DNA of 64,000 bases, taken from NCBI GenBank assembly GCA_009780825.1, contig WQZH01000007.1, positions 52,696 through 116,695 on the forward strand, in the 5' to 3' direction. The notes under the pieces are model-generated. The model did not search any database. It was not told where the DNA came from and saw only the letters and a program-made list of their open reading frames with translations. Position 1 is the first letter of the stretch; each line of letters opens with the position of its first letter. Position numbers and translations under genes: made by a program. Shown here piece after piece: positions 28,434-56,534 of the stretch. This DNA is from Desulfobulbus sp. (GTDB lineage Bacteria > Desulfobacterota > Desulfobulbia > Desulfobulbales > Desulfobulbaceae).

Positions 28434-31400
28434 TCAGGCAGTGGCCAGCAGGCCATACTTTCTCCGGTACTGCTCCCGGAACCGGCCCATTGCCACCATA
28501 TCGCGCAGATAGGCATCGGAGCGGTCGAGATAGAAGGCAAGGGCCTTGGCAAAATTCCGTCCCACCATGCCATCGACGAACATCTGACTAATTTCGCGAT
28601 GCCGCTTGAGCACAAGCTGGGAACGGTAAAAGATCAACCATTCCTCGGCGGACATCGTCACCACGATCTGCTGCAGGGCCTTGCGCGCCCTGGGCTTGTA
28701 CATCCAGATGTACATCAGATCCAGCGCGTTGACGATGAACACCTTGTCCAGATCGTGCGCCTCTTGGTGAATGGCGGCGATCAGGGCCTTCGGCGACTGG
28801 AGCAGGTCAAGCACATCCTCTTCCGGAAACAACACGTCCAGACGGGCATAGGTCGAGAACATCTGACTGAGCTTGTCCCGGTAGTCGGCCAGCCGAACGT
28901 TGACATTGGTTTGCCGGTCGGCCAATCCTTCAATCACCGCGGCCACGCAGTCCGAAGCGAGTTTGGAGATCACCGCGGCCCATTTCTGCAACCCCTCCTC
29001 GACCTGCGGCACCATGGCCCAATTCAACGCTAAGCCCAAGATGTCATTGAAGAAAATGGCCAGGGGGATGGATACGATCGACCGGAAAAAATTACCGATG
29101 ATCGCACTGGGAGGCAGGCCGCGCAGGATATTGTGGGTGGAAATGTAGATCCCATTGGCCAGGGCTATCACCGAATAGAGCAGCAGGGGGCTGGTGGAAG
29201 TGGTGACCCCCAGCAGCCGTTGCAACAACAGGGTCTTGACCAGATAATCGAGTAACGGCACCGAAAAGCCGGTATAAAGGAGGGAGTCGGAGATCCGGCT
29301 CCAGCTCAACAGGGAGTTCAACGACAACAGGGGTGAGCGCTTGAGCCCACCGCCGCCGAGGATCGACTGGATAATGTTGCGGACGCCGGTGATGCCGAAC
29401 CAGATAAAGGCCCCGAAGTACGCCAGCACCCACCAGTCCTTGGTCAGGGCAAAGGTCAGAAAGGCCGGCACAAACCCGATCGCGATTTTGAGGATGTTGC
29501 ACAGGTGCGACTGGAGGTAACGTAGCGAGAGCCTCTTGCTCCTGCCGCTCTTCCGCCCAAGGTGAATATCGAGTGCGGGTATGTTGCGGATGCCGCCCAA
29601 GGTGGCGATGTTGCCGTCGACGCCAGGATGGACCTCGAATCGGTCCAGGCTCCAATCGCTCCACCTCTGCGGGACAACGCCGTGTCCCCGGCCCTGGATT
29701 CCCTGTCCCAACTTGCGGTACCAGGGCAGGGAGGCCGGTGCTTCCCCTAGCCGATGGTGGTGATGAATCATCCGGGCGCTAACCGGGATGAGCCTGCGCC
29801 ACCCGCCCCTGTGCTCATGCATAACTTGGCGCAAAGCCCGTTTCGGCAGGGTCTCCACCACCACCAGCCCCATGCCGTGCTGGAGCTGCGACTGCCCGGT
29901 CGATCCCGTTCCAATGCGAGAACCGAGGTAGCGTTTGTTGTAATGGTTGTGAAACGACTCGATATTAATCAGGATATCGAGCAGGTTGTCCCGGCGCTGG
30001 TTCATCTCCGCCAATTCGGCCTGCGATGCGGCCAGGGTTCCCGGTGACAACAACTGCGCATTCTCTTCTCCGCACCGTTTTTCAACAGCCAGACGAAGCC
30101 GCTCAAAATCCCATATAATGGCTCTGATCGCCCGTTTCAGGGCGATGACGTTATCCTCATTCAGGGCTTTTTGCAGAAAGTTGACCAGTTGGTAGTTCTG
30201 GCCCAAGCTGTTGGTCTCCGCCATCTCGTCGGCAGCGCCGCTTCCCTTGCCAGAAGCCAGCACAGCCATGCCATGACCTGCATCCTTGAGGTTGAAGGCC
30301 TCGATATGAGTGATCCGCCCCTGGCAGATGTACAACAGCTCAAGGGTATCATGAATCGACAGATTGCTCAGATTCAGAGTGAAGCGCGATCCCGAATGCA
30401 TGGAGACGAGCCGGCCCAGCAGTTCATGCGGCGCCAGGTGCATCAACGGCGGCTGGCCTTCGTCGTGGGGCACGGTGGGATCGTGCAGGCCAGGATTGCG
30501 GGCAGGCTGGAGATACTGATTGATGATCCTCCCGAAATCGAGCCAAGCCATCTTGCGCGCACAGGCCGCCAACAATTTTTCCCGGGCATTGCTGTCTTGA
30601 TGAGCGGTTTGGTGGATCCGCCGTACCTCGGCGTCGAGCAAGGCATGGTAATGGTTCTGGATGAATTTGGCGAGGTGCAGGAGTGACGGCTGACCGGTGC
30701 CGACAAAACGAAGGAATTGATCCCGGTCCAGCGGCAGGCTCTCCACTTCCAGTTCCTGGTCCAACAACGGTCGATGGATGTCGTTGAAAACAGCGATCAC
30801 GTCGAGGACGTACTGCTGTTGGTAACGGGAAACCTGCCGGCCCTGGTCAAGCATTTCTTTGACCGCCTCTTCCTGCAGAAAGTGCTGCAGGCTGCGACGG
30901 TCGAAAAAGCCCTCCAGCTCCCAGATGAAGCGGACGAACTTATTGCGGAAGCGCGAAGAAAATTCGATGCCGATGCGGACATGGATGTCAAGGATCGCCC
31001 CAGCCTCGAGCAACTCCTCCACCACTTCCTGTTCGACATGGTTATAGTATACCACGGTCAGCTTGCGGATTCCCTTGATCCAGGCATCCATCAGCAGATG
31101 GGTGGGCGATTTCCTCCCCTTGGTGTTGGCGTCGTGCACATGGTCATCGAAGGCGAACTGGTTCCATTCCTCGGGCATCTCCAGGAGGTGATACTTGGCC
31201 AGTTCCTTGCGCACCAAACGCGGTCTGCCGGTGTAGACCATGCGGAAATCGTGCGCCAGTTTCAGCTGCCGTCTTTCATCGCCCTCGTGCCGTACCAATT
31301 CCTTGATGATCTGCATCAGTACCCGGGCGGTGTTCTTGGAATAGAACGAGGTGGCGGAGCTGAAGACCTCATCGCGCAGACTGCGCAGGGCGATGATCCG

Positions 31401-45633: not shown

Positions 45634-45780
45634 TCCGGGTTACAGGCTATGGGCTATTGCCAGGGTTCGCAGGCTCGCCTCAACCCATGAGCTTTTTACG
45701 GCACAAAAAACGCTCCCTTGCGTTCTACGCTGGCCTGCAGTCGTGAACCGCACAACAGTAACTTTTGCCAGGAGATGAAC

Positions 45781-46809
45781 ATGAACCCTTTCGACCGCCT
45801 CCGACGTGAAATGTCGGGCTACATGCAGGTGAGCATCCTCGCGGCGCTGGCTGAACTCGATTTCGGCACTGTTATTCTGGCAAACGGCAACAGCCGCAGT
45901 GCCGTCGAACTCGCCGACCATTGCTCGTGTGACCGGCATGGCACCGAAGTGCTGCTCGACGCCCTCTCGGCCATGGGTTACCTGCTCAAATCAGGCGCAG
46001 GCGGCAACGCCCGCTATTCGGTAGCCGAGGAGTACACGCCATATCTGGACAGCCGCCATCCTTCGACCTTCATCCCCATGATGCGCCACATGGCCTGCGG
46101 ACAGCGCACTTGGGCGCGGCTTACCTGGTCGGTAAAGGACGGTAAACCGCAGGAAGGGCAATCCAGCATTCTGGGCGAAGAACAGGACAGGATATCGTTC
46201 ATCATGGGCATGCACTCCATCGCGGCCAAGCTGGTGGATGGCGTCATGCAGTCATTGCGCAAGGCCGGAGTGCTGCCTTGCGGCAAGCCAAACCCACGTA
46301 TTCTGGATATAGGCGGCGCGTCCGGCACGTACACCGAAGCGTTTCTCAAGGAACTGCCGGGAAGCTCGGCGACGATATTCGATCTGCCCGTGGGCATCGC
46401 CCAGGCGAGAACCCGTTTCAGGGGTTCGGCTATGGAAGCGCGGGTTACGCTGGTGGAAGGAGACTTCACCAAAGTCTCCCTGCCGACAGGCTTCGATTTC
46501 GCGTGGATAAGCGCCATCATCCACCAGATGAACCGGAGCGGGAGCCGCATGCTCTACGCCAAGGCGCTGGATGCGCTGAATCCCGGCGGCCTGGTGGGCG
46601 TGCGCGACTATGTGATGAGCGAGAACCGTCTCTCCCCGATGGATGGTGCTCTTTTCGGGATCAACATGTTTGTCAATACCCCAAACGGCATGGTGTACAC
46701 CTACGGGGAAATCAAAGAAGACCTGGAACAGGCGGGATTCGTCAACGTGACGCACGCCGTGGATGTGCCCACCATGGCCGCCGTGGTCACTGCGAACAAG
46801 CCGGAATAG
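45781..46809 (+). CDS. O-methyltransferase (dimerisation domain plus Methyltransf_2)
   Basis: ILDIGGASGT, IFDLP, VEGDF, ISAIIHQ, LNPGG. Confidence 0.88.
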   Translation: MNPFDRLRREMSGYMQVSILAALAELDFGTVILANGNSRSAVELADHCSCDRHGTEVLLDALSAMGYLLKSGAGGNARYSVAEEYTPYLDSRHPSTFIPMMRHMACGQRTWARLTWSVKDGKPQEGQSSILGEEQDRISFIMGMHSIAAKLVDGVMQSLRKAGVLPCGKPNPRILDIGGASGTYTEAFLKELPGSSATIFDLPVGIAQARTRFRGSAMEARVTLVEGDFTKVSLPTGFDFAWISAIIHQMNRSGSRMLYAKALDALNPGGLVGVRDYVMSENRLSPMDGALFGINMFVNTPNGMVYTYGEIKEDLEQAGFVNVTHAVDVPTMAAVVTANKPE

Positions 46810-47009
46810 CACGACCCTCCGAGCGCCTGGTGGTTCCTTGATCTGATCCGCCCTGACAGGTAGGGCACAAAATAGTCAAGTCCCGGCAATGGAGTTGCTG
46901 TGGATCTCGGGTGACGAAGCCATCAGGGTTTCAATGCTCTATTTTTGGGTGCGGCTCAAAGACAAGAAGAAACCGCTGTTACCGGTCCAAACTAAGGGGA
47001 CCACATTCT

Positions 47010-49154
47010 ATGAATGACCTGTCTTGTATTCCTTTGTGGTTACTAAACGCCTCGACGCATCAGTTGATTGTTGGCGGAGTGCTCTTTGTTTTGCTGACCT
47101 TATTTGTTTGTCGCTTTCTTCCGCCTGCCTGCTGGCATATCTTCCGGCTGTGGCGGATAGCAAAAGAGCTGCAAAAGATTCCAAAAGAACTCACCCCGGA
47201 AGAAACTCTTGCCGCCATCGAAACGATATTTTCGCGGCACCATAGACGCCTCCGTCATCTGTGGAACGAGTATCAGGAAACCTTACACCGGCAGTGTGAA
47301 GAACGCGACGGCGAGCTGCACACCAAGGCAGTGCGGGCCACGGTTCCGGCGGAACTCTATTTCAACGGCCAGGCGCTGGTGGAAGACTGGTTGGACACTG
47401 AGTTGTATAAGCACTTACCCGGCATTTTTACTGGATTGGGGATCATCGGCACTTTTTCCGGACTAATCATCGGCCTGGCAGCCTTTCATGTCAGTGAAAA
47501 TCCCGGCAAAGCCCGGGAAAGCTTGCAAGCTCTGATGCATACGGTCAGCGAAGCCTTTCTGGTGTCCGCCGGAGCGATCATTACCGCCATGGTGGTGACC
47601 TTTCTGGAAAAATCCCTGGTCGCTATTTTACTGCGCAAAGCCGAAGCCATCGCTCGCGCCCTTGATGAACGCTTTGATAGTGGCGTGGGAGAGGAATATC
47701 TGTCGCGGCTGGTCAAGGCTTCGGAGGAATCGGCCAGCCAGGCGAGAATCCTCAAGGATGCCCTGGTGGGAGAACTGAAGGTGATGTTGACGAATCTGAC
47801 GGATTCGCAGATTCAGAGCAACCAGCAACTCCATCACGCGCTCGTCCGGGAATTGAACAGTAATTTTCAGGGACAGGCCAACAGCATCAGCGAAAGCATC
47901 AGAGAGAGTTTGCAGCAACCACTGCAAGACATCGCCAAGACGGTGCAATCCGCCAGCGGTGAGCAGGGCGAGGCCGCCGTGCTCATGTTGCAGTGGGTGA
48001 TGGAGCGATTCGGCGCCGACCTGCAAACATTGCTGGGCGGACAGATCAATGGTTTGCAGGGGTTGAATGACCAGGCCGCCCAAGCCATGGAAAACGCGGT
48101 GACTTCCCTTAACACGCTGGTGAATGCGCTGACGGCCAGCGGCCAGCAATCCGCCAAAGACATGGCGGCGCGAATGGCCTCGGCGGTCGCGGATATGAAA
48201 ACCGAACTCTCCGGTATCAGCGGTGCGATGCGGCAGGCGGTGGAGGCGATTACCGCGCAGGTGGGCGCATCACAGGAAGAGACGGACCGGAAGCTCCAGG
48301 AAACCTTGGGTAAAATTGATGTGACCCTCTCCGCCTTGCTGGAAAAGATTCAGGTTTCCCAGGCTGGCATGATGCAGGAGATGGAAAAGTCGCAAGGCGA
48401 AATGGCCCAAACGCTGCACAATGCCGCCACCGGCATCACCGGCGGCATGGACAATATGCTGGGCAAGCTGGATGCCACCATGCGCGGCATGGAAACCAGC
48501 GTGGACCGACTCGGCGGCGCAGTCACGGATGCCATCAACAAGATGGATGCCGGGGCAGCGGCGTTGAATACCGCCGCTGGCCGTTTCGCTCAAGCCGGAG
48601 AAAGCGTCAGCCGGGCCATGGCGCAGAGCGAAACAGTCAGCGCCCATTTTGGCAAGGCATCCGATGACGTGCTGACAGCCACGCACATGCTGGATAACGT
48701 GTCGGCGCAACTCGGCCAGACATCCCAATCGGTGGCCGCCTCGCTCGCCGACTACCAGAACCAACGCAACCTGGTCGTTCAGGTCCTGGAAGATTTGAAA
48801 ACCACCATCGGCCAGGCGAAACAAGAGGCCAGCCTGACAGAAAACATCTTGCGCCGCATGGAAGGTTCCGCCGCAAAACTTGCCACCGCCCAGAAAAATA
48901 TGGACGAATATCTCGAAAAAGTGAGTGCTGTGTTGTCAACGTCCTCCAACGCCTTCCGAACCTCTGTCACCGATACGCTGAAACAGGTCAATCATGAATT
49001 TCTCAACCACCTGGAGACGGCCGTCAAGATGCTCAATACCTCCATCCAGGAATTGGAGGTGACTGTAGTCGGCGCCCAGGCAGGACGCAGCCCGTCAACA
49101 ACATCCCCTGTTTCATCATCGGCTGTGACCAGCACCGGGATGAGGCGTAGATAA
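47010..49154 (+). CDS. zorA: Zorya type I ZorA (MotA-like, with long helical tail)
   Basis: KHLPGIFTGLGIIGTF.GL and DSGVGEEYL..LVK.SEES..QAR.LK match ZorA as I recall it. Long coiled-coil C-terminal tail; AAGGGG RBS. Confidence 0.92.
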   Translation: MNDLSCIPLWLLNASTHQLIVGGVLFVLLTLFVCRFLPPACWHIFRLWRIAKELQKIPKELTPEETLAAIETIFSRHHRRLRHLWNEYQETLHRQCEERDGELHTKAVRATVPAELYFNGQALVEDWLDTELYKHLPGIFTGLGIIGTFSGLIIGLAAFHVSENPGKARESLQALMHTVSEAFLVSAGAIITAMVVTFLEKSLVAILLRKAEAIARALDERFDSGVGEEYLSRLVKASEESASQARILKDALVGELKVMLTNLTDSQIQSNQQLHHALVRELNSNFQGQANSISESIRESLQQPLQDIAKTVQSASGEQGEAAVLMLQWVMERFGADLQTLLGGQINGLQGLNDQAAQAMENAVTSLNTLVNALTASGQQSAKDMAARMASAVADMKTELSGISGAMRQAVEAITAQVGASQEETDRKLQETLGKIDVTLSALLEKIQVSQAGMMQEMEKSQGEMAQTLHNAATGITGGMDNMLGKLDATMRGMETSVDRLGGAVTDAINKMDAGAAALNTAAGRFAQAGESVSRAMAQSETVSAHFGKASDDVLTATHMLDNVSAQLGQTSQSVAASLADYQNQRNLVVQVLEDLKTTIGQAKQEASLTENILRRMEGSAAKLATAQKNMDEYLEKVSAVLSTSSNAFRTSVTDTLKQVNHEFLNHLETAVKMLNTSIQELEVTVVGAQAGRSPSTTSPVSSSAVTSTGMRRR

Positions 49155-49927
49155 TGAAAGGCGCGAGATTCATCCTGGCAAAAAAGCGGACGGACGAGGA
49201 AGAAAAGCCCTTCTGGATTTCCTTCGCCGATCTGATGACCGCCTTGATGGTGCTGTTTCTCGTGGCCATGGCGGTGGCGCTGTTGGCTGTCACCAAGACC
49301 GCGAGCGAGCGGGAGCAAAAGGAGGCGGCGCACCGACAAGACATCAAACAGGTGATGGAGCGTTTTGCCGAAGCCGCTGAAAAATTTGAGGGGATTCATG
49401 TCAATGTCGATGAGGCTAAGGAGCGTTGCGTCATCTACTTCGACAAGGAACTCCTTTTCTCTGACAACAGTTGTAACCTGACAAAAGACCAAGAACGGGA
49501 GTTACGCGTCTTTGTGCCGGAGATGCTCGATCGGGCGAACCGGGACGCGGTAGGCAAACGGGTGATCAAGCGCTTTGTCCTCGAAGGCTACACCGACAAT
49601 AATGGCTCCTATCTGTTCAACGTCAATCTGAGCCTGCTACGTAGCCAACGGGTACTCTGTGCCCTGTTCGCTACCACGGGAACGGAACTGTTATCGGATG
49701 AGCAAAAGAAAGAAGTGCGTGATCTGTTTTTGGTCGGCGGCTATTCGTTCAATGCCGCCAAATCGACTGAAGAGGAAAGCCGCCGCGTGGAAATGCGTGT
49801 GGAATTTTTGGGGATTGATGAAAAACGACCAGAACCGCCGAAAAGCGACAAATTCGGCGAATGCGTCATCCTAACTGAGTGCAAATCGCGAAAAAAAAGC
49901 CATCAGAGCAGAGATGAAGGCAATTGA
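49154..49927 (+). CDS. zorB: Zorya ZorB (MotB/OmpA-like)
   Basis: EEKPFWISFADLMTALMVLFLV (channel Asp), EGYTD, NLSLLRSQRV, SRRVE; TAATG overlap with zorA. Confidence 0.93.
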   Translation: MKGARFILAKKRTDEEEKPFWISFADLMTALMVLFLVAMAVALLAVTKTASEREQKEAAHRQDIKQVMERFAEAAEKFEGIHVNVDEAKERCVIYFDKELLFSDNSCNLTKDQERELRVFVPEMLDRANRDAVGKRVIKRFVLEGYTDNNGSYLFNVNLSLLRSQRVLCALFATTGTELLSDEQKKEVRDLFLVGGYSFNAAKSTEEESRRVEMRVEFLGIDEKRPEPPKSDKFGECVILTECKSRKKSHQSRDEGN

Positions 49928-51626
49928 CCGCTTGCAAGACATGCTCTCCGGGAGAGAAGTCCTTCCTCAACCAGACCTATCCGTCATCCGAACCGCCTGC
50001 GCCGAGCCGCTACGTGCGATACAACAGCTCAACCAGGCGATGGAAAAACATATCTGGAGCGCGGGCACGGCAAGTATCCCCGAAGATCAGATACTGGAAG
50101 CCCTGCGCCGCTTTTGGCATTCTTTGACCTTGGATACGTTTCGGGACGCGGTGCGGGTCTGCGCTGGCCTAGCCCTGCCACTGGAACAATCCGGCCCAAG
50201 CCTTATGGATGACAGCAAACGGTTTCAGGCGGCACTGGACGGGCTTGAACCTTGGCGGCAATCGCCCTGCCTGTTCCGGCGCTGTTTTTTCGGCCTGATG
50301 CACAGCTATTTTACCTGTGATCCCGAAACAGAGCCGCACAACACGGTCAAGAGGGAAAACTGGCGGCGCTTGCGTGACTATCTGCGGGGCAACAGCGGCC
50401 GGCTGCTGGAAACGGGAAAAATCAACCCGGATTGGGCGCATTGCCTGCAAGAGCACGTCCGCCTGTTTGGCCCTGAACCTTGCGCGTTCTATGCTCAAGC
50501 TATTCTCAATGGCGATGAGTCCGATGCTGTTTTAAAACCACTGCGCGAGCAATTGCATATCACCGCCTCATCCTGGTTCCACCGTGAACTGGTGCTGGGA
50601 CAGGTGAAAGCGGCGGTGGCCGAAGTGGACGCTGGATTCAGGCCGCTTCTCGGCAGATTGCTGAGGCTGCTTGAAGACAATACGCTGTTGCGTAGTCCCG
50701 GCCTGACCCTATTGCTGGAGCGTTACGCCCGAATCCCCGGTCAGCCATTGCATTCGGAATTGCGTGACGCCGCGGTCAGGTGGTGGCAAAATCCCTGGTT
50801 GCCTTCGACGGCGGCGCAGTGGGGTGGAATGAGCCATGCGGCGAAGGATATGGTGGCGGGCTGGCTGAAGCGCGAATTCATTGAAAGTTTTTTTCAAAAA
50901 CTTGCCCAAGATGGCAACAACGACTCACGACGGGCCAAATTCTGGCTGCGTTATGTCAAATCCATGGGCGATGTGCGCTTTGCCCTTGGTTATAACTGGG
51001 AATATTCACGTGACCGCGATGTACGGGTTTTGCTGGAAAAAATGAAAGGGTTGTACAAATCCATGGATAGGGCCGACGGCAGCGCCTTCATTATGACCTT
51101 GGGCGATGTGGTGGCGGTGGAATTCGGCAAACAAGACAATAGATTGTATGTCTACAGCAGGGACAAATTACCATTTGATCCGGGAAAACACATGGCAACC
51201 TATGTTGACGTACACAATTCACTGAAAAACAATGCAAATTTATTCAAGTTTACCCACTATGGTAATTGGGAACCGAATTTGGAAGGACGATTACGGCAAT
51301 ACGGTATCAGCCCGGATGATGCCGCTACCGTCAGACGCAGACAACCGCCCGTCAATACCATATCGGTCGGAAGGGTAGGTGCTGCCACGGATGCCGTTGC
51401 CGCCGGACAATCGTCCGGCAACACCCTGCCGCGCCCTGCCGTCGCCGGAAGCTACAGCTTCGATAAGCTGCGTCAACTTGCCAAGGATTACAATTTCCGC
51501 ATTGAAGACCGCACCGCCCAAGGTGGTTGTGTTTGGGCGTACACCTCTCATCCTGAAGCCCGGCGCCGGCTGACGTCATGGGGCTTTCGATATAAAGATA
51601 GCAAAGGCTGGTGGCTGAAGCCGTGA
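49914..51626 (+). CDS. zorC: Zorya ZorC (EH-signature domain protein)
   Basis: Follows zorB; RAKFWLRY, VAVEFG...RLYVY, and C-terminal GGCVW...WGFRYK..KGWW. Confidence 0.85.
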   Translation: MKAIDRLQDMLSGREVLPQPDLSVIRTACAEPLRAIQQLNQAMEKHIWSAGTASIPEDQILEALRRFWHSLTLDTFRDAVRVCAGLALPLEQSGPSLMDDSKRFQAALDGLEPWRQSPCLFRRCFFGLMHSYFTCDPETEPHNTVKRENWRRLRDYLRGNSGRLLETGKINPDWAHCLQEHVRLFGPEPCAFYAQAILNGDESDAVLKPLREQLHITASSWFHRELVLGQVKAAVAEVDAGFRPLLGRLLRLLEDNTLLRSPGLTLLLERYARIPGQPLHSELRDAAVRWWQNPWLPSTAAQWGGMSHAAKDMVAGWLKREFIESFFQKLAQDGNNDSRRAKFWLRYVKSMGDVRFALGYNWEYSRDRDVRVLLEKMKGLYKSMDRADGSAFIMTLGDVVAVEFGKQDNRLYVYSRDKLPFDPGKHMATYVDVHNSLKNNANLFKFTHYGNWEPNLEGRLRQYGISPDDAATVRRRQPPVNTISVGRVGAATDAVAAGQSSGNTLPRPAVAGSYSFDKLRQLAKDYNFRIEDRTAQGGCVWAYTSHPEARRRLTSWGFRYKDSKGWWLKP

Positions 51627-51647
51627 AGCTCTGACCGCAAAGACCTG

Positions 51648-51911
51648 TCAATAGTGGTACCGGCAGGAGATGATGGTGATTGCCGCTTCATCCGCCGCAT
51701 AGACCAGACGGTTGCTTGCATCTATCCGCCGCGACCAGAACCCCGACAGATTTTCCCGCAACGGCTCTGGCTTGCCAATACCGGTAAATGGCTGCCGCAA
51801 CGCGGCGATGATGAGCGTATTGATGCGTTTCAATGTCTTCTTATCCTGTCCCTGCCAGTACAGATAGTCGTTCCAGGCTTCATCGGTCCAGGAGAGCAAG
51901 CGTTTAGTCAT
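51648..51911 (-). CDS. yoeB: Txe/YoeB-family toxin
   Basis: WTDEAWNDYLYWQ..DKK..KRIN.LI, PFTGIGKPEPL...LSGFWSRRI...RLVY, CRYHY. Confidence 0.95.
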   Translation of the reverse strand: MTKRLLSWTDEAWNDYLYWQGQDKKTLKRINTLIIAALRQPFTGIGKPEPLRENLSGFWSRRIDASNRLVYAADEAAITIISCRYHY

Positions 51912-52158
51912 CGAGCAAATTCCGCCGCTGGATTTGCCCGGCCTGATACTGGGCGATGGATTTGCCCAGATGTTCTGCATTGGCCGGTGAGCGCAGCAGA
52001 TGCACGGTCTCCATCAGGCTGTTGTAGAAGTCCAGCGACATGACCACCGCGTCCTGGGCGTCCCGGCGGGTGATGACGGTGGCTTCCGCATCTTGAACCA
52101 CGGCATCCAGGATGGCTTTCAGGCTGTTCCGCGCGGTGGTGAACGATACGACTTTCAT
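51904..52158 (-). CDS. yefM: YefM/Phd-family antitoxin
   Basis: SFTTARNSLK, VITRR...DAVVMSL..YNSLMET.HLLRSPANA.HL..SI; GGAGG RBS. Confidence 0.95.
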   Translation of the reverse strand: MKVVSFTTARNSLKAILDAVVQDAEATVITRRDAQDAVVMSLDFYNSLMETVHLLRSPANAEHLGKSIAQYQAGQIQRRNLLDD

Positions 52159-52169
52159 AATGGCCTCCA

Positions 52170-52218
52170 CTTGTACAGAAAACAAGACAAGTATAGGCGC
52201 CACAATGAGACAGAGCAA
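52170..52218 (-). promoter_or_regulatory. yefM-yoeB promoter and operator
   Basis: TTGCTC-N17-TATACT (52218-52190). TGTACA core at 52172-52177 within CTTGT...ACAAG; TGTACA is the core of the E. coli yefM-yoeB operator. Confidence 0.65.
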
Positions 52219-52245
52219 CATATTTCATCCGTATCAAAAGGGAAA

Positions 52246-55200
52246 ATGATGGGTATTTTCAGTAAAAAGACACAATCCCTCTGGCGGCGGCGCTGGACGG
52301 AAGAAGGCGTCATTCTTGACCGTGGCGGTGCCGGGGTGCAACTCGACGCGCCGCTTTTGCCCGCTTTTCTGGAGCAACTTCAGGATGACGGGCACGCTGT
52401 GGAATGGGGCGACGACCTGATCATTTCCTGGGATGAACTCTATGATGCCCTGGCAAAAGAAGGCTATGAGGAGTTGGCCCAGGCGTTGAAGCTGCCACCG
52501 GAGACGCCGCATCATCCCCGGTTGGGAAGTAGCGGGGCCTTGACCGACCTGGATTTTTCCATCGTTCTTTCCTGGAAAAAATTTGGTGTTACAGCCAATC
52601 TCAAGCGCTGCGGCGCGGTGCTTACCGACGGAAACGGTGAAGAATTGATGACGGTCGCCCAGTGGCGGCTGGCGCGGGAGGTTGTCGCTTTTGCGAAACG
52701 GCAAGACCACGATGAACTGTATCAGCGGCAAAGTTGGGGCCGCATTCGCAAACTGGCACAAATGACGGGAGCGGGGCTTGATGATTTCCTCGGGCGCACC
52801 GTGGTGCTGACCCCGGATAAACTGCAACTCGGTTTGAACAAGATGGAGGATGCGGGCGAGGCCATTGTGGAAATCGTCCCAACATTCGAGGATGCGCCTC
52901 CCGGCTGGCTCCTCTCTTTCGATGCGGCGAATAGCGTCCGTGACCGCTATGACATCGTCACTGAAGAAGGCATTGTGCAGGTGCTGGTGACCCCGGAAGT
53001 TAAAACGGTGTTGCGGGAAATCAAACGGTTGCCGAAACGCCGGGCAACCGGGGCGCGGGCCAAAGCCATTTTACTCAACCCTGTCGCCGCCCTGGGCGAT
53101 GAAGCTGGAACAGTCATTGATCCAGAACAGATCGAAACGGCGCGGGAACAGGCCGGTATTGTTCACGAATATCTTTATCCACTAATAGAACGCGACAACT
53201 ACGGTTTCCCGGCCTGCGTCGGCTTGCGCGTCGAAACGCTGACGGGTGGCGGCGTCTCTTCGTCGAAAACAGAATGGTTGACCGATGACGAAGACGACCA
53301 TGCCCTAGACGAATTTGTGCGGCAACTGAACGTAGCTCTGGTGCAGCATTTCCCGTTGCTGGGCTGGCAGGGCTATGAATTTGAGCTGCGGAGCGACGCG
53401 GCGGAACATCTGCGGCACTTGCAAAAGGCGCTTGACGAACGAAGGACGCCGCATATCCGCATCCGCTATGAGGACATCCATAACCTGGCGAACTACAGCG
53501 ACCGCATTGAGGGTATCGGCGAGGAAAAAGCCTATGTTTCTGTTTATATCAAAAAAGACGGCAAACCGTGGTTTCCCGTTGATCCGATTGACCTCACCAT
53601 TATTTCCATTCCGCCACTGTCCGAAGGCGGCGATGGCACGCTGCTGCCGGTCACGCCAAAGCAGATTGAAGAATTAAAAACAGCGGTCAATGACGCGAAA
53701 GAGCGAGAAGAGACAGAGATCAACCTGCCTTGGCTGCCACGCCCTCTTGCGGTCGATGAGGCGGATGAAATCACTAAAGATTTTCCCGGTGCTGAAGCTC
53801 AAAAACCTCCTGTTGGTGGCGGTAACCCTCCCAAACCGCCACCAACACCTGGCAAGCCGAACACCCTCATCCTCAAATCCAATATCAATACCTTGGACTA
53901 TGCGCAACTTCGCCGGGAGGCGGCGGAGAAAGCGCTTTTGGCCCCTCCGCGCCCGCCGCAAAGCCTGCGGAAAAATATCAGTCTTCTTGACCATCAAAAA
54001 GTCGGTCTGGCCTGGTTGCAGGGAATGCACCGGGAGCGAGAGCGCATTAACGCTGGCGGCGTCATCCTCGCCGATGACATGGGTCTTGGCAAGACCCTGC
54101 AAATCCTCGCTTTCATGGCTGGTCTTCTCGAAGAAAGCCCAGAGACCAATCCCATGCTGGTGGTGGCGCCGGTGTCGCTTCTCGACAACTGGCGGGAGGA
54201 GATGGCAAGGTTTTTCATCCTCAAGGCACTGCCCACGCTTACCGCCTATGGCGATGGCCTGGCCCATCTGCGCCTGCCACGGGACCAGGTGGATGAGCGT
54301 CTGCGTCAAGAAGACGGCTTGGTGAGTTTTCTTAAACCCGGTTGGGTTGGCAATCACAAAATTGTTCTTACCACCTACGAGACGTTACGCAACCTGGAGT
54401 TTTCCTTCGCCTTGCAGCCCTGGTCGGTGATGGTCTGCGACGAGGCACAGAAGATCAAAAACCCGGCAGCCATGGTCACACGGGCGGCGAAAAAACAGAA
54501 AGCCGCCTTCAAGATCGCCTGCACCGGCACGCCGGTGGAGAATACGCTGGCTGACCTGTGGTGCCTCTTTGATTTCATCCAGCCTGGTCTTCTCGACGCT
54601 TTGGATGAATTCGGCAAACGCTACCGCAAACCGATCGAGGCCAGAACCGAGGAAGAGAAAGCGAAGGTGGAGGAACTGCGGCAAAAAATTGCCCCGCAGG
54701 TGCTGCGCCGCCTCAAGGCGGATGTGGCAAAGGATTTGAAAGAAAAGCGAGTTGACGCGGACTGCCGCAAGCTGCCCCTGTCCGACGAGCAACGGCGCTT
54801 GTATGCTGGGGCCATCAAGTTGTTTAGAAGGCGCGACCAGCCGGGCGCGGCCACGCCTTTCAAAAATCACCTGGGCCTGTTGCACTACCTGCGCCTGGTC
54901 TGCACCGATCCGAAACGCCACGGACTCACCAGCTTCACGCCGGAACCACTCAGCCAATATCGCGCCAAAGCGCCGAAACTGGACTGGTTGCTGGATCGAT
55001 TGCACGGCATCAAAAAACAAAAGGAAAAAGCCATTATCTTCTGCGAATTCCGGGAAATGCAGCGGCTATTGCAGCATTACATTCATGAATCCATCGGGTT
55101 GCGACCGCAGATTATCAACGGCGAGACCGCCACGTCGGCAGGCAGCGCCACCAGCCGCCAAAAACAAATCAGGAAATTTCAGGAGGAGAAAGGCTTTGGT

Positions 55201-55957
55201 GTGCTCATCCTGTCACCCCTGGCGGTTGGATTCGGCGTCAACATCCAGGCGGCCAACCATGTCATTCATTACACGCGAACTTGGAATCCGGCCAAGGAGG
55301 ATCAGGCCACCGACCGCGCCTACCGCATCGGCCAGGAAAAGGATGTCTTTGTCTATCTATCCCACGGTATGCGCCGATGATTTCGTCACCTTCGATGTCC
55401 GGCTTGATGAACTGCTGGAAAAAAAGCGCGGTCTCGCCGGTGATATGCTCAATGGCACCGGGGATGTGGATTGGAGCGACGCCCTGACGGGCATGACGCC
55501 AGATGGCGGCGGGACGCTCGATGAACGGATTACCATGGAAAAAATCGGGGCCATAGATCCCCGCTACTTCGAGGCGCTGACGGTGGCGATCTGGGGTAAA
55601 CGCGGATTTACCTGTGTCCTCACACCGCCAAGCGGTGATCAGGGCATTGATGTCGTTGCCATACAAGGCGAAGAGGGCGTTTTGATTCAGGTAAAAAAGG
55701 CGTCTGAGGACAGGGCTCTGGGCTGGGACGCCGTGAAGGAGGTTGTGGCTGGAGAGGCATATTATCGTCAACAGCACCCAGGAATCAACTTTCAGAAGAT
55801 TGCCTTGACCAATCAATTGTTCAACGATGCGGCCAGGGAACAGGCGCGGCTCAATGACGTGGAATTGCTGGAGCAGGCGTGGCTTGAACAATCTCTTGGA
55901 GAGTATGCCATCATGATGTCCGAACTTGAGCGGATACTGTTTCGGAGCGAATCGTGA
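52246..55957 (+). pseudogene. zorD: Zorya ZorD (SNF2 helicase plus C-terminal Mrr-like nuclease), interrupted by a +1 insertion at about 55357
   Basis: N-terminus LEQL...SWDELY...GALTDLDF; ADDMGLGKT, CDEAQKIKN, TGTPVEN, WNPAKEDQATDRAYRIGQ. Next frame gives YPTVCADDFVTFD...FEAL...DQGIDVV...LIQVK (Mrr-type). Confidence 0.88.
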
Positions 55958-56341
55958 TGCAAGGCCACAAGATGTGGATGCGTCAGCGCGCGGGAAAACT
56001 CATGCCGCCAAAAGAACCGGCGCCTGTCGCTCACCTTTGATTTGCATTCCCTCTGCAACCAGGCGGTGTTCCCCTCTTTTTCGGGCAATAAATTTCTTGT
56101 GATTCTTGACCAGCGAACTATATTGCCCGCAGCCAACATGCCTGCGGCGCATATATCTGCGCCAGGCTGACAGTCCATTACCAAAAAAGGAACGATGAAC
56201 GACTCAGACGGCAGTCACAGTTGCTGGTCAACGGACCAGGGACACGAACAGTTGCAACAACCTGAACACCCTAGATCGCGGTGCTTGAGCCGCGCGGCAG
56301 GCACATTGGACAGTCGGCGCTCGTTTCACGTTTAGCCCTCA

Positions 56342-56389
56342 GTTCACTTCCGGCCGCCCCTCGACCACCGCGGCCGCAAGGAGGTGAAC
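56342..56389 (+). promoter_or_regulatory. Hairpin sequestering a strong Shine-Dalgarno in the mgtA leader
   Basis: GTTCACTTCC (56342-51) pairs with GGAGGTGAAC (56380-89); inner GGCCGC/GCGGCC stem. Confidence 0.55.
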
Positions 56390-56390
56390 C

Positions 56391-56534
56391 TTGGCGTCTC
56401 CATCTTTCTTGGCATTCTCCCCACCCATCAGCCCTTCTTCCGGCAACGATGGTGCTACTCACCCATCCTTCCATCCCGTCTATCGCTTTCTTTTCGTCAT
56501 CAACGTTGCGAGTTGCGAGAGGACGCGGCCATGA
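56391..56534 (+). CDS. Candidate Pro-rich leader peptide of mgtA (47 aa)
   Basis: AAGGAGGT 5 nt before TTG; MASPSFLAFSPPISPSSGNDGATHPSFHPVYRFLFVINVASCERTRP*; stop overlaps the mgtA ATG (ATGA). Confidence 0.45.
   Translation: MASPSFLAFSPPISPSSGNDGATHPSFHPVYRFLFVINVASCERTRP

What the first reader, a model, noticed from the sequence alone, without database searches (positions are those of the whole stretch)
47010..55957. Type I Zorya with an autonomous YefM-YoeB module nested antisense between zorC and zorD
Seen: zorABC are tightly coupled, then yoeB-yefM run on the opposite strand. Only 21 nt with no visible terminator separate the zorC and yoeB stops. yefM and zorD diverge across 87 nt that contain the TA promoter and a TGTACA operator. 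Knowledge: canonical type I Zorya is a contiguous zorABCD. Inference: a composite system in which zor read-through is antisense to the TA, the TA operator could also gate zorD, and YoeB could act as an abortive-infection effector or stabilise the island.
Basis: partly seen in the sequence, partly recalled or inferred. Interest (0 to 1): 0.78.

Follow-up and report, generated by a model that had tools for sequence, protein, structure and literature searches.

The report
Toxin-antitoxin cassette inserted inside Zorya operon
A small, self-contained YefM-YoeB toxin-antitoxin cassette sits backwards between two genes of a Zorya anti-phage operon; the nesting is real and inherited in a few related uncultured bacteria, but it looks like a selfish insertion into a decaying defence system, not a new composite one.

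Summary
zorA, zorB and zorC are intact and coupled. yoeB-yefM lie on the opposite strand, 21 nt from the zorC stop and 87 nt from the zorD start. zorD carries a +1 frameshift at 55357.

In 104 other type I Zorya loci the zorC-zorD spacer has a median of 9 nt (maximum 103); here it is 619 nt. None of 108 Zorya loci has a YefM or YoeB gene nearby.

The nesting is not unique to this strain. Two further lineages, with cassettes 92% and 85% identical in DNA, carry it in the same place and orientation.

The same roughly 580-bp cassette (promoter, operator, yefM, yoeB) also occurs in at least three non-Zorya contexts in related metagenomic bacteria. It is under strong purifying selection (dN/dS 0.07-0.24).

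The Zorya around it is damaged in two of the three lineages. A fourth, syntenic locus appears to keep only a broken yefM and a short zorD-like stretch.

The yefM-zorD spacer varies (87, about 265 and about 330 nt), which argues against operator control of zorD.

Best reading: an autonomous addiction cassette inserted once and was tolerated, and it is outliving the defence operon. Interest is modest.

The parts
47010..49154 (+). zorA (714 aa), MotA-like subunit with a long tail; appears intact
   Evidence: PADLOC ZorA1 E 2e-197, covering 8-658 of 663 profile positions. Gene callers in two other assemblies use the same start.
49154..49927 (+). zorB (257 aa), MotB-like; appears intact; Asp26 present in the sequence SFAD26LM
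   Evidence: PADLOC ZorB1 E 7e-89 over 1-238 of 240; Pfam MotB_plug; translation.
49914..51626 (+). zorC (570 aa), EH-signature protein; appears intact
   Evidence: PADLOC ZorC1 E 2e-162; Pfam EH_Signature E 2e-47. E403 and H448 are invariant in a 26-sequence alignment.
51627..51647 (.). 21-nt convergent junction between the zorC stop and the yoeB stop; no terminator detected
   Evidence: Sequence; terminator scan; folds no better than shuffles on either strand.
51648..51911 (-). yoeB (87 aa), ribosome-dependent mRNA endonuclease toxin; full length
   Evidence: Pfam YoeB_toxin E 8e-39. End-to-end alignment to E. coli YoeB 2A6Q, E 8e-31. The residues I recall as Glu46, Arg65, His83 and Tyr84 are identical.
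51904..52158 (-). yefM (84 aa), Phd/YefM antitoxin; overlaps yoeB by 8 nt
   Evidence: Pfam PhdYeFM_antitox E 1.5e-21; 3418 homologues at E<=1e-10.
52159..52225 (-). Predicted TA promoter and operator, read on the minus strand: -35 TTGCTC (52213-52218), 17-nt spacer, -10 TATACT (52190-52195), inverted repeat ACTTGT-N12-ACAAGT (52169-52174 and 52187-52192) containing TGTACA (52172-52177), SD GGAGG (52164-52168)
   Evidence: Read from the sequence. Conserved in every intact copy of the cassette in Zorya and non-Zorya contexts. In the decayed copy L127 both arms changed together (CTGGT / ACCAG). Function is predicted only.
52226..52245 (+). 20-nt leader directly upstream of the zorD ATG (purine-rich AAAAGGGAAA)
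   Evidence: It resembles the zorD leader of the TA-free relative L003.
52246..55380 (+). zorD 5' part (1043/1044 aa): SNF2 ATPase with DEAQ box and Helicase_C; cut short by a +1 C insertion at 55357, stop at 55378-55380
   Evidence: PADLOC ZorD1 1332 bits; Pfam SNF2-rel_dom and Helicase_C. Frameshift located against 8 homologues. All relatives read straight through this point.
55343..55957 (+). zorD 3' part (204 aa) in the +1 frame: the last ~50 residues of the ZorD core plus the Mrr-type nuclease domain. It has its own ATG (55343) after AGGA, so separate translation is possible.
   Evidence: Pfam Mrr_cat E 1.3e-12; PADLOC ZorD1 C-terminal positions. Called as a separate gene in two other assemblies.

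Best explanation
An autonomous yefM-yoeB addiction cassette of about 580 bp (own promoter, operator, ribosome-binding site and two overlapping genes) was inserted antisense into the normally tiny zorC-zorD junction of a type I Zorya operon. This happened in an ancestor of a small clade of uncultured bacteria.

The insertion uncoupled zorD from zorC. It was nevertheless tolerated and inherited.

The cassette most likely behaves as ordinary YefM-YoeB does. YefM, helped by YoeB, represses its own promoter at the inverted repeat. If the labile antitoxin is lost, YoeB cleaves ribosome-bound mRNA. The DNA that carries it is therefore hard to lose.

The Zorya genes around it are now decaying lineage by lineage, while the cassette stays under purifying selection.

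Shown: the anatomy, the rarity among Zorya loci, the presence of the cassette in other contexts, the selection on the TA genes and the lesions in Zorya.

Inferred: a single ancestral insertion, the TA mechanism (by homology to E. coli YefM-YoeB), addiction as the reason for persistence, and the loss of Zorya function.
For: 1. Both modules are bona fide.
2. In 104 related loci the zorC stop to zorD start spacer has a median of 9 nt. The range is -16 to 31 nt, with one locus at 103 nt. Here it is 619 nt.
3. No YefM or YoeB hit (E<=1e-3) lies within 6-10 kb of any of the 122 related ZorC loci fetched; 108 of these show both zorC and zorD. No Zorya gene lies near 51 YoeB loci on viral contigs.
4. 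The same cassette occurs at 81-85% DNA identity, with sharp homology ends at about 51647 and 52200-52225. It is found between ychF and an OB-HD gene (L130-133, L137, L138) and beside an AAA_14/DUF4143 gene (L141).
5. Lineages B (L134-136) and C (L193) carry it in the same gap and orientation. A and B also share recognisable junction sequence.
6. TA dN/dS is 0.07-0.24 in all comparisons.
7. Lesions: the zorD +1 frameshift in A, and zorC homology broken upstream of codon ~391 in B.
8. At the same chromosomal position after MTHFR (84% identical flank), L127 has no zor gene. It keeps a yefM with CAG->TAG at codon 78. yoeB is replaced, and a ~30-nt stretch matches the zorD leader and first codons of L193.
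9. All four Zorya proteins are needed for defence in E. coli (PMC11946911).
Against: - The zorD and zorC flanks of A versus B still show dN/dS of about 0.25 (83 and 54 codons). Zorya therefore stayed under selection for much of the time after the insertion. The nesting did not kill the system at once and might even be useful.
- The arrangement has persisted, or arisen twice, over TA dS of 0.5-1.0.
- The cassette of lineage C is closer to the ychF-context copies (90%) than to A and B (83-85%). Two independent insertions at the same site cannot be excluded.
- The zorD frameshift leaves the whole SNF2 core and a translatable Mrr ORF, so Zorya may still work in the window's organism.
- Contigs of lineages B and C are only 1-1.8 kb, so most of their Zorya genes are unseen.
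- No expression or phenotype data exist.
Confidence: 0.7

Rival explanations
1. The nesting is a functional composite. The TA is a second-line abortive-infection or regulatory partner of Zorya. Convergent read-through from zorABC would modulate the TA, the YefM operator would co-regulate zorD, and YoeB would fire when phage shuts down host expression.
For: - No terminator separates the convergent units.
- The arrangement and orientation are kept in three lineages whose TA differs by up to 17% in DNA.
- The Zorya flanks have dN/dS of about 0.25 after the insertion.
- Auxiliary effectors embedded in other defence loci (BREX) are described (PMC12839542).
- Toxin-antitoxin modules are reported in defence islands and implicated in phage defence (PMC11980606; a review on this topic is cited in PMC11890865).
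Against: - None of 108 other type I Zorya loci has a TA.
- The cassette is complete and conserved outside Zorya.
- The operator-to-zorD distance varies: 87, about 265 and about 330 nt.
- Zorya is damaged in two of the three lineages and gone in a fourth locus that appears to derive from the same arrangement, while yefM remains.
- PADLOC has no defence model matching this YefM or YoeB.
Confidence: 0.12
2. The zorC-zorD gap is a preferred landing site. Related cassettes entered it independently at least twice (the A/B clade and the C clade), implying site preference or repeated selection.
For: - The cassette of lineage C groups with the ychF-context copies (90%), not with A and B (83-85%).
- The 18-nt yoeB-zorC spacer of C is no more like A's than an unrelated context is.
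Against: - Same orientation and near-identical placement.
- Zorya flank divergence (about 80-85%) is of the same order as TA divergence. Co-divergence, with the ychF copy derived from a C-like lineage, is equally simple.
- No target-site duplication, terminal repeats or recombinase were seen.
- None of 108 other loci has an insertion.
Confidence: 0.13
3. Assembly artefact: the TA was joined to Zorya by mis-assembly of a repeated cassette in a metagenome.
For: The Logan assembly breaks inside yefM (window 51920-51949, 30-nt overlap between L001 and L050). The cassette is multi-copy in these communities.
Against: - An ENA contig and the window both span the two junctions.
- Independent contigs from other samples and lineages also span zorC 3' - TA - zorD 5' (L134, L135, L193; L136 covers zorD 5' and the TA up to the junction).
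- The Logan break is explained by identical k-mers shared between lineages at the 3' end of yefM.
Confidence: 0.02

Closest known systems
Type I Zorya (zorABCD), as characterised in E. coli (Nature 2024, PMC11946911) and modelled in PADLOC as ZorA1/B1/C1/D1
   Same: All four components give top hits to type I models. Gene order is A-B-C-D. zorA/zorB and zorB/zorC overlap. ZorB Asp26, the ZorC E/H pair and the ZorD DEAQ box are present. ZorD is of the long, Mrr-bearing kind (about 1250 aa), as in most relatives found.
   Different: zorC and zorD are separated by 619 nt carrying two antisense genes, against a median of 9 nt elsewhere. zorD is split by a +1 frameshift into a 1043-aa SNF2 part and a 204-aa Mrr part. 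The closest relative is only 50% (ZorC) and 67% (ZorD) identical (Desulfobulbaceae MAG, L003).
E. coli YefM-YoeB type II toxin-antitoxin (PDB 2A6Q; operator described in PMC1802561)
   Same: Antitoxin first and toxin second, with overlapping genes. YoeB aligns end to end with identical active-site positions. A TGTACA hexamer lies between the predicted -10 and the SD, where the E. coli operator sits.
   Different: Only one perfect TGTACA is present. The position 12 bp upstream reads TGTCTT (3 of 6). The conserved element is instead a longer inverted repeat, ACTTGT-N12-ACAAGT. The genomic context is inside a defence operon.
Auxiliary effectors embedded within core defence loci, e.g. BREX (NAR 2026, PMC12839542)
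   Same: An extra nuclease-type module sits between core genes of a multi-gene defence system.
   Different: In BREX those associations recur across thousands of taxa. Here the association is confined to one small clade, and the module is a complete selfish TA that also lives elsewhere.

Membership tests
Type I Zorya | ZorA (MotA-like with long tail) and ZorB (MotB-like) present | tested here: met
   PADLOC ZorA1 E 2e-197 and ZorB1 E 7e-89, near full-length.
Type I Zorya | ZorC with EH-signature domain | tested here: met
   PADLOC ZorC1 E 2e-162; Pfam PF15611 E 2e-47.
Type I Zorya | Intact ZorD (SNF2 helicase/nuclease, here with Mrr domain) as a single protein | tested here: not met
   A +1 insertion at 55357 splits the gene. 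Relatives are continuous at this point across the loci where both parts could be aligned. No intact allele above 67% identity is in the protein database.
Type I Zorya | Contiguous zorABCD operon | tested here: not met
   The zorC-zorD interval is 619 nt with two antisense genes. The median is 9 nt in 104 loci.
Type I Zorya | Confers phage defence that requires all four genes | not testable with these tools
   Needs plating assays. The requirement is shown for E. coli in PMC11946911.
YefM-YoeB type II TA | Phd/YefM antitoxin immediately upstream of, and overlapping, a YoeB toxin gene | tested here: met
   Pfam hits E 1.5e-21 and 8e-39; 8-nt overlap.
YefM-YoeB type II TA | YoeB catalytic residues conserved | tested here: met
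   In the full-length alignment to 2A6Q, the KPEPL, SRRI and C-terminal RYHY motifs are identical. Which residues are catalytic is from my own knowledge of E. coli YoeB.
YefM-YoeB type II TA | Operator with paired TGTACA motifs 12 bp centre to centre | tested here: not met
   One perfect hexamer (52172-52177); the partner position reads TGTCTT (paradigm from PMC1802561). That paper notes that many homologues lack the pair. A conserved inverted repeat, ACTTGT-N12-ACAAGT, is present instead.
YefM-YoeB type II TA | Toxicity neutralised by the antitoxin; autorepression | not testable with these tools
   Needs expression assays.
Composite or embedded defence system (core system plus conserved embedded effector) | Association recurs across diverse, independently evolving loci | tested here: not met
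   None of 108 other Zorya I loci and none of 51 viral YoeB loci shows it. It is found only in three related lineages.

The most novel reading that the evidence does not exclude
In this clade the yefM-yoeB cassette has been co-opted as a working part of Zorya. It would act either as an abortive-infection back-up released when phage blocks host transcription, or as a switch in which convergent zorABC read-through and the YefM operator set the level of zorD. This would explain why the nesting and its orientation have survived species-level divergence, possibly through two independent insertions at the same junction.
Probability: 0.1. Interest if true: 0.65.

Novelty: new member of a known kind. 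Interest (0 to 1): 0.33.

Why it matters
If the best reading holds, this is a clear natural example of an addiction cassette landing inside a multi-gene defence operon. It splits a translationally coupled gene pair and then outlives the operon. The stages seen are: intact apart from one frameshift, zorC broken, and all of Zorya gone with a stub of yefM left.

That is useful for three things:
- How defence islands turn over.
- Annotation pipelines, which expect contiguous systems.
- Interpreting 'orphan' antitoxins.

It does not reveal a new defence mechanism. If the minority reading were right, it would be the first case of a TA integrated into Zorya signalling. I found no paper in the library linking Zorya with YefM or YoeB.

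Tried and rejected
- The first genome scan, with the single ZorC protein, found nothing. The scan with an alignment worked.
- A viral-contig scan for ZorC found nothing.
- Exact look-ups of ZorD from ATG 52246 and of YefM returned nothing. ZorD from ATG 52249 did.
- I looked for target-site duplications or terminal repeats around the cassette and found none convincing.
- I looked for a terminator or hairpin at the 21-nt junction and found none.
- I looked for a zorD promoter in the 87-nt region with the consensus scan and found none. The scan also misses my proposed TA promoter, so this is weak.
- A striking pair of TGTACA motifs 12 bp apart at 28697/28709 looked like a second YefM operator. 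It lies inside a 1064-aa ORF and encodes two Met-Tyr dipeptides, so it is a coincidence.
- An integron-cassette origin was considered, because many YefM relatives are from Vibrio. It was rejected because homology ends 1 nt after the yoeB stop, leaving no room for an attC site.
- Programmed frameshifting in zorD was considered. There is no slippery motif at GTCTATCTATCCC.
- I could not name the organism. The nearest Zorya is from a Desulfobulbaceae MAG.
- The 255-nt extra segment of lineage B matches nothing else fetched.
Full report
**What is in the window**

- zorA (47010-49154), zorB (49154-49927) and zorC (49914-51626) are on the plus strand. They overlap one another. They match PADLOC type I Zorya models nearly end to end (E 2e-197, 7e-89 and 2e-162).
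- On the minus strand lie yoeB (51648-51911; Pfam YoeB_toxin, 8e-39) and yefM (51904-52158; PhdYeFM_antitox, 1.5e-21). They overlap by 8 nt.
- zorD starts at 52246/52249 on the plus strand (ZorD1, 1332 bits; SNF2 and Helicase_C).
- The zorC and yoeB stops are 21 nt apart. The yefM and zorD start codons are 87 nt apart. TGTACA sits at 52172-52177.
- No terminator-like site or better-than-random hairpin exists at the convergent junction.

YoeB aligns over its whole length to E. coli YoeB (2A6Q, E 8e-31), with the active-site positions identical.

Upstream of yefM I read the following on the minus strand: a plausible promoter (TTGCTC, 17 nt, TATACT), an inverted repeat ACTTGT-N12-ACAAGT that contains the TGTACA, and a GGAGG ribosome-binding site. 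The E. coli operator is a pair of TGTACA cores 12 bp apart (PMC1802561). Here only one is perfect.

**zorD is broken**

A single extra C at 55357 shifts the frame (GTC TAT [C] TAT CCC). Eight relatives read DV(Y/H)VYY(P/L) there. In the loci where both parts could be aligned, relatives run straight from the SNF2 part into the Mrr part.

The result is a 1043-aa SNF2 protein and a 204-aa ORF with the Mrr_cat domain. That ORF has its own ATG (55343) after AGGA, and gene callers treat it as a separate gene.

The same sequence at 100% identity is in an ENA contig (21.7 kb of overlap) and in two Logan contigs. The nesting and the frameshift are therefore not quirks of one assembler. The read sets may not be independent.

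No intact allele above 67% identity is in the protein collection.

**How unusual is the nesting?**

I collected 46 genomic and 76 metagenomic loci encoding ZorC relatives.
- In 108 loci with both genes, zorC and zorD are adjacent.
- No YefM or YoeB hit (E<=1e-3) occurs anywhere in the 6-10 kb flanks of any of the 122 loci.
- Measured from stop to start in 104 loci, the spacer has a median of 9 nt, a range of -16 to 31 nt, and one outlier of 103 nt. The outlier is L003, the closest relative.

The window's 619 nt is therefore an insertion into a normally coupled junction. Conversely, none of 51 YoeB loci on viral contigs has a Zorya gene nearby.

**The cassette is a discrete unit found in several places**

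The closest YefM proteins (83-92% identical) come from short metagenomic contigs. Their contexts fall into four groups.
1. zorC 3' end | yoeB-yefM | zorD 5' end. This is seen in lineage B (L134, L135 and L136, from three samples; cassette 91.8% identical to the window) and in lineage C (L193; 84.7%).
2. ychF | yefM-yoeB | an OB-fold/HD gene (L130-133, L137, L138).
3. Divergent from an AAA_14/DUF4143 gene (L141).
4. PDZ gene | yefM' | DUF1016_N | MTHFR (L127-129, L139, L140).

Homology to the window always stops 1 nt after the yoeB stop (about 51647). On the other side it stops just beyond the -35 box (BLAST 52200; alignment about 52225). The unit is therefore about 580 bp.

The inverted-repeat operator is present in every intact copy. 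In the decayed copy both arms changed together (CTGGT / ACCAG).

dN/dS of yefM and yoeB is 0.07-0.24 in every comparison.

**The arrangement is inherited, and Zorya is decaying around the cassette**

- Lineages A (the window) and B share alignable junction sequence on both sides. This points to one insertion event.
- In B, the zorC reading frame loses all similarity upstream of codon ~391 and runs into stop codons. In addition, 255 AT-rich nt separate the cassette from zorD.
- In C, about 200 nt containing a DUF1016_N-like fragment sit between the cassette and zorD. Direct repeats of about 22 nt flank this insert. The small C-terminal domain of ZorC is duplicated.
- Group 4 lies at the same chromosomal position as the window's Zorya: directly after MTHFR, with 5.7 kb of 84% identical housekeeping flank. 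It has no zor gene.
- It keeps yefM with a CAG->TAG stop at codon 78, yoeB is replaced exactly at the gene junction, and about 30 nt match the zorD leader and first codons of lineage C (35 of 36 positions). I read it as a ghost of the same nested locus. The zorD-specific part of that match is only about 10 nt, so this is suggestive, not proven.

**Points that cut the other way**

- The short zorD (83 codons) and zorC (54 codons) flanks shared by A and B have dN/dS of about 0.25. Zorya was therefore still under selection for much of the time after the insertion.
- The cassette of lineage C is nearer to the ychF-context copies (90%) than to A and B. Two insertions at the same site cannot be excluded.
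- In the window, zorABC, the ZorB Asp26, the ZorC E/H pair and the ZorD DEAQ box are all intact. The only visible lesion is one recent-looking frameshift.

**Mechanism**

The most likely account has four steps.
1. The cassette works as ordinary YefM-YoeB. It represses itself at the inverted repeat, and it cleaves ribosome-bound mRNA when the antitoxin is lost. This rests on homology only.
2. Its insertion broke zorC-zorD coupling. zorD now depends on read-through across 619 nt of antisense TA DNA, or on an unidentified promoter.
3. Convergent transcription without a terminator probably gives mutual antisense RNA. Nothing suggests this is used.
4. The yefM-zorD distance differs among lineages (87, about 265 and about 330 nt). 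Control of zorD by the YefM operator is therefore unlikely to be a conserved feature.

In E. coli all Zorya components are required for defence, and ZorD is the nuclease (PMC11946911). A split ZorD may therefore weaken or abolish defence here.

**Comparison and novelty**

- Both modules are ordinary members of well-known families.
- Extra effectors embedded in defence loci are known for BREX (PMC12839542).
- TA modules are common in defence islands (PMC11980606).
- I found no paper in the library that links Zorya with YefM or YoeB.

The nesting itself appears to be undescribed. It is confined to one small clade and is best explained as a selfish insertion.

**Verdict**

- Observation: confirmed.
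- Interpretation: partly supported.
- Novelty: a new member of known kinds in an unusual arrangement.
- Interest: modest (0.33).
- Probability that the TA has been co-opted by Zorya: about 10%.

Noticed in passing
window 55343-55380: The +1 frameshift in zorD creates a 38-nt overlap between the SNF2 ORF and an Mrr_cat ORF. The Mrr ORF has its own ATG after AGGA, so a naturally 'split' ZorD could be made. ZorD relatives without any Mrr domain (about 1075 aa) also exist.
   Followed up: partly
L127 1-1211 (also L128, L129, L139, L140): A related organism has the same MTHFR flank and no Zorya. It carries a PDZ gene with a strong terminator, a ~30-nt zorD-start-like relic, yefM with a premature TAG, then a 162-aa DUF1016_N gene exactly where yoeB should begin.
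   Followed up: partly
L193 73-199 and about 50-75 / 225-250: In lineage C a roughly 200-nt insert lies between zorD and the TA promoter. It contains a fragment 80% identical to the DUF1016_N gene of L127 and is flanked by direct repeats of about 22 nt (TTTTCTCYYGATCCYTAT). DUF1016 sequence thus turns up next to this cassette in two different arrangements.
   Followed up: no
L193 845-1375: The small C-terminal domain of ZorC (DKLRQLA...GGxVWA...WGFxYK..GWW) is tandemly duplicated in lineage C.
   Followed up: no
L134 252-506 and 1643-1779; L136 223-387: Lineage B has a 255-nt, 43.5% GC segment with a 54-aa ORF (no Pfam hit) between the cassette and zorD. It also has AT-rich unrelated sequence replacing zorC upstream of codon ~391.
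   Followed up: partly
window 51920-51949 (ends of L001 and L050): The Logan assembly breaks inside yefM with a 30-nt overlap. Lineages A and B are identical over a long stretch at the 3' end of yefM. The break is likely a graph branch between co-occurring lineages.
   Followed up: partly
L003 3639-3741: The closest TA-free relative (Desulfobulbaceae MAG) has an unusually long 103-nt zorC-zorD spacer. It contains a GC-rich inverted repeat (GCGCGGGCCGAGACCG ... CGGTCTCGCGC) and a T-run, against a median of 9 nt elsewhere.
   Followed up: no
window 28697-28714: Two TGTACA motifs exactly 12 bp apart mimic the E. coli YefM operator. They lie inside a 1064-aa ORF on the minus strand and encode Met-Tyr twice, so this is a coincidence.
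   Followed up: yes
window 45634-56400 versus flanks: G+C falls from about 0.62 in the upstream housekeeping genes to about 0.55 across zorABC, the cassette and zorD. Synteny with L127 ends exactly at the MTHFR stop (45633). Both suggest a horizontally acquired island at a variable spot.
   Followed up: partly
L142-L192: YoeB relatives up to 78% identical occur on 51 predicted viral or prophage contigs. Two of them (L147, L158) carry the same ACTTGT-N12-ACAAGT repeat.
   Followed up: partly
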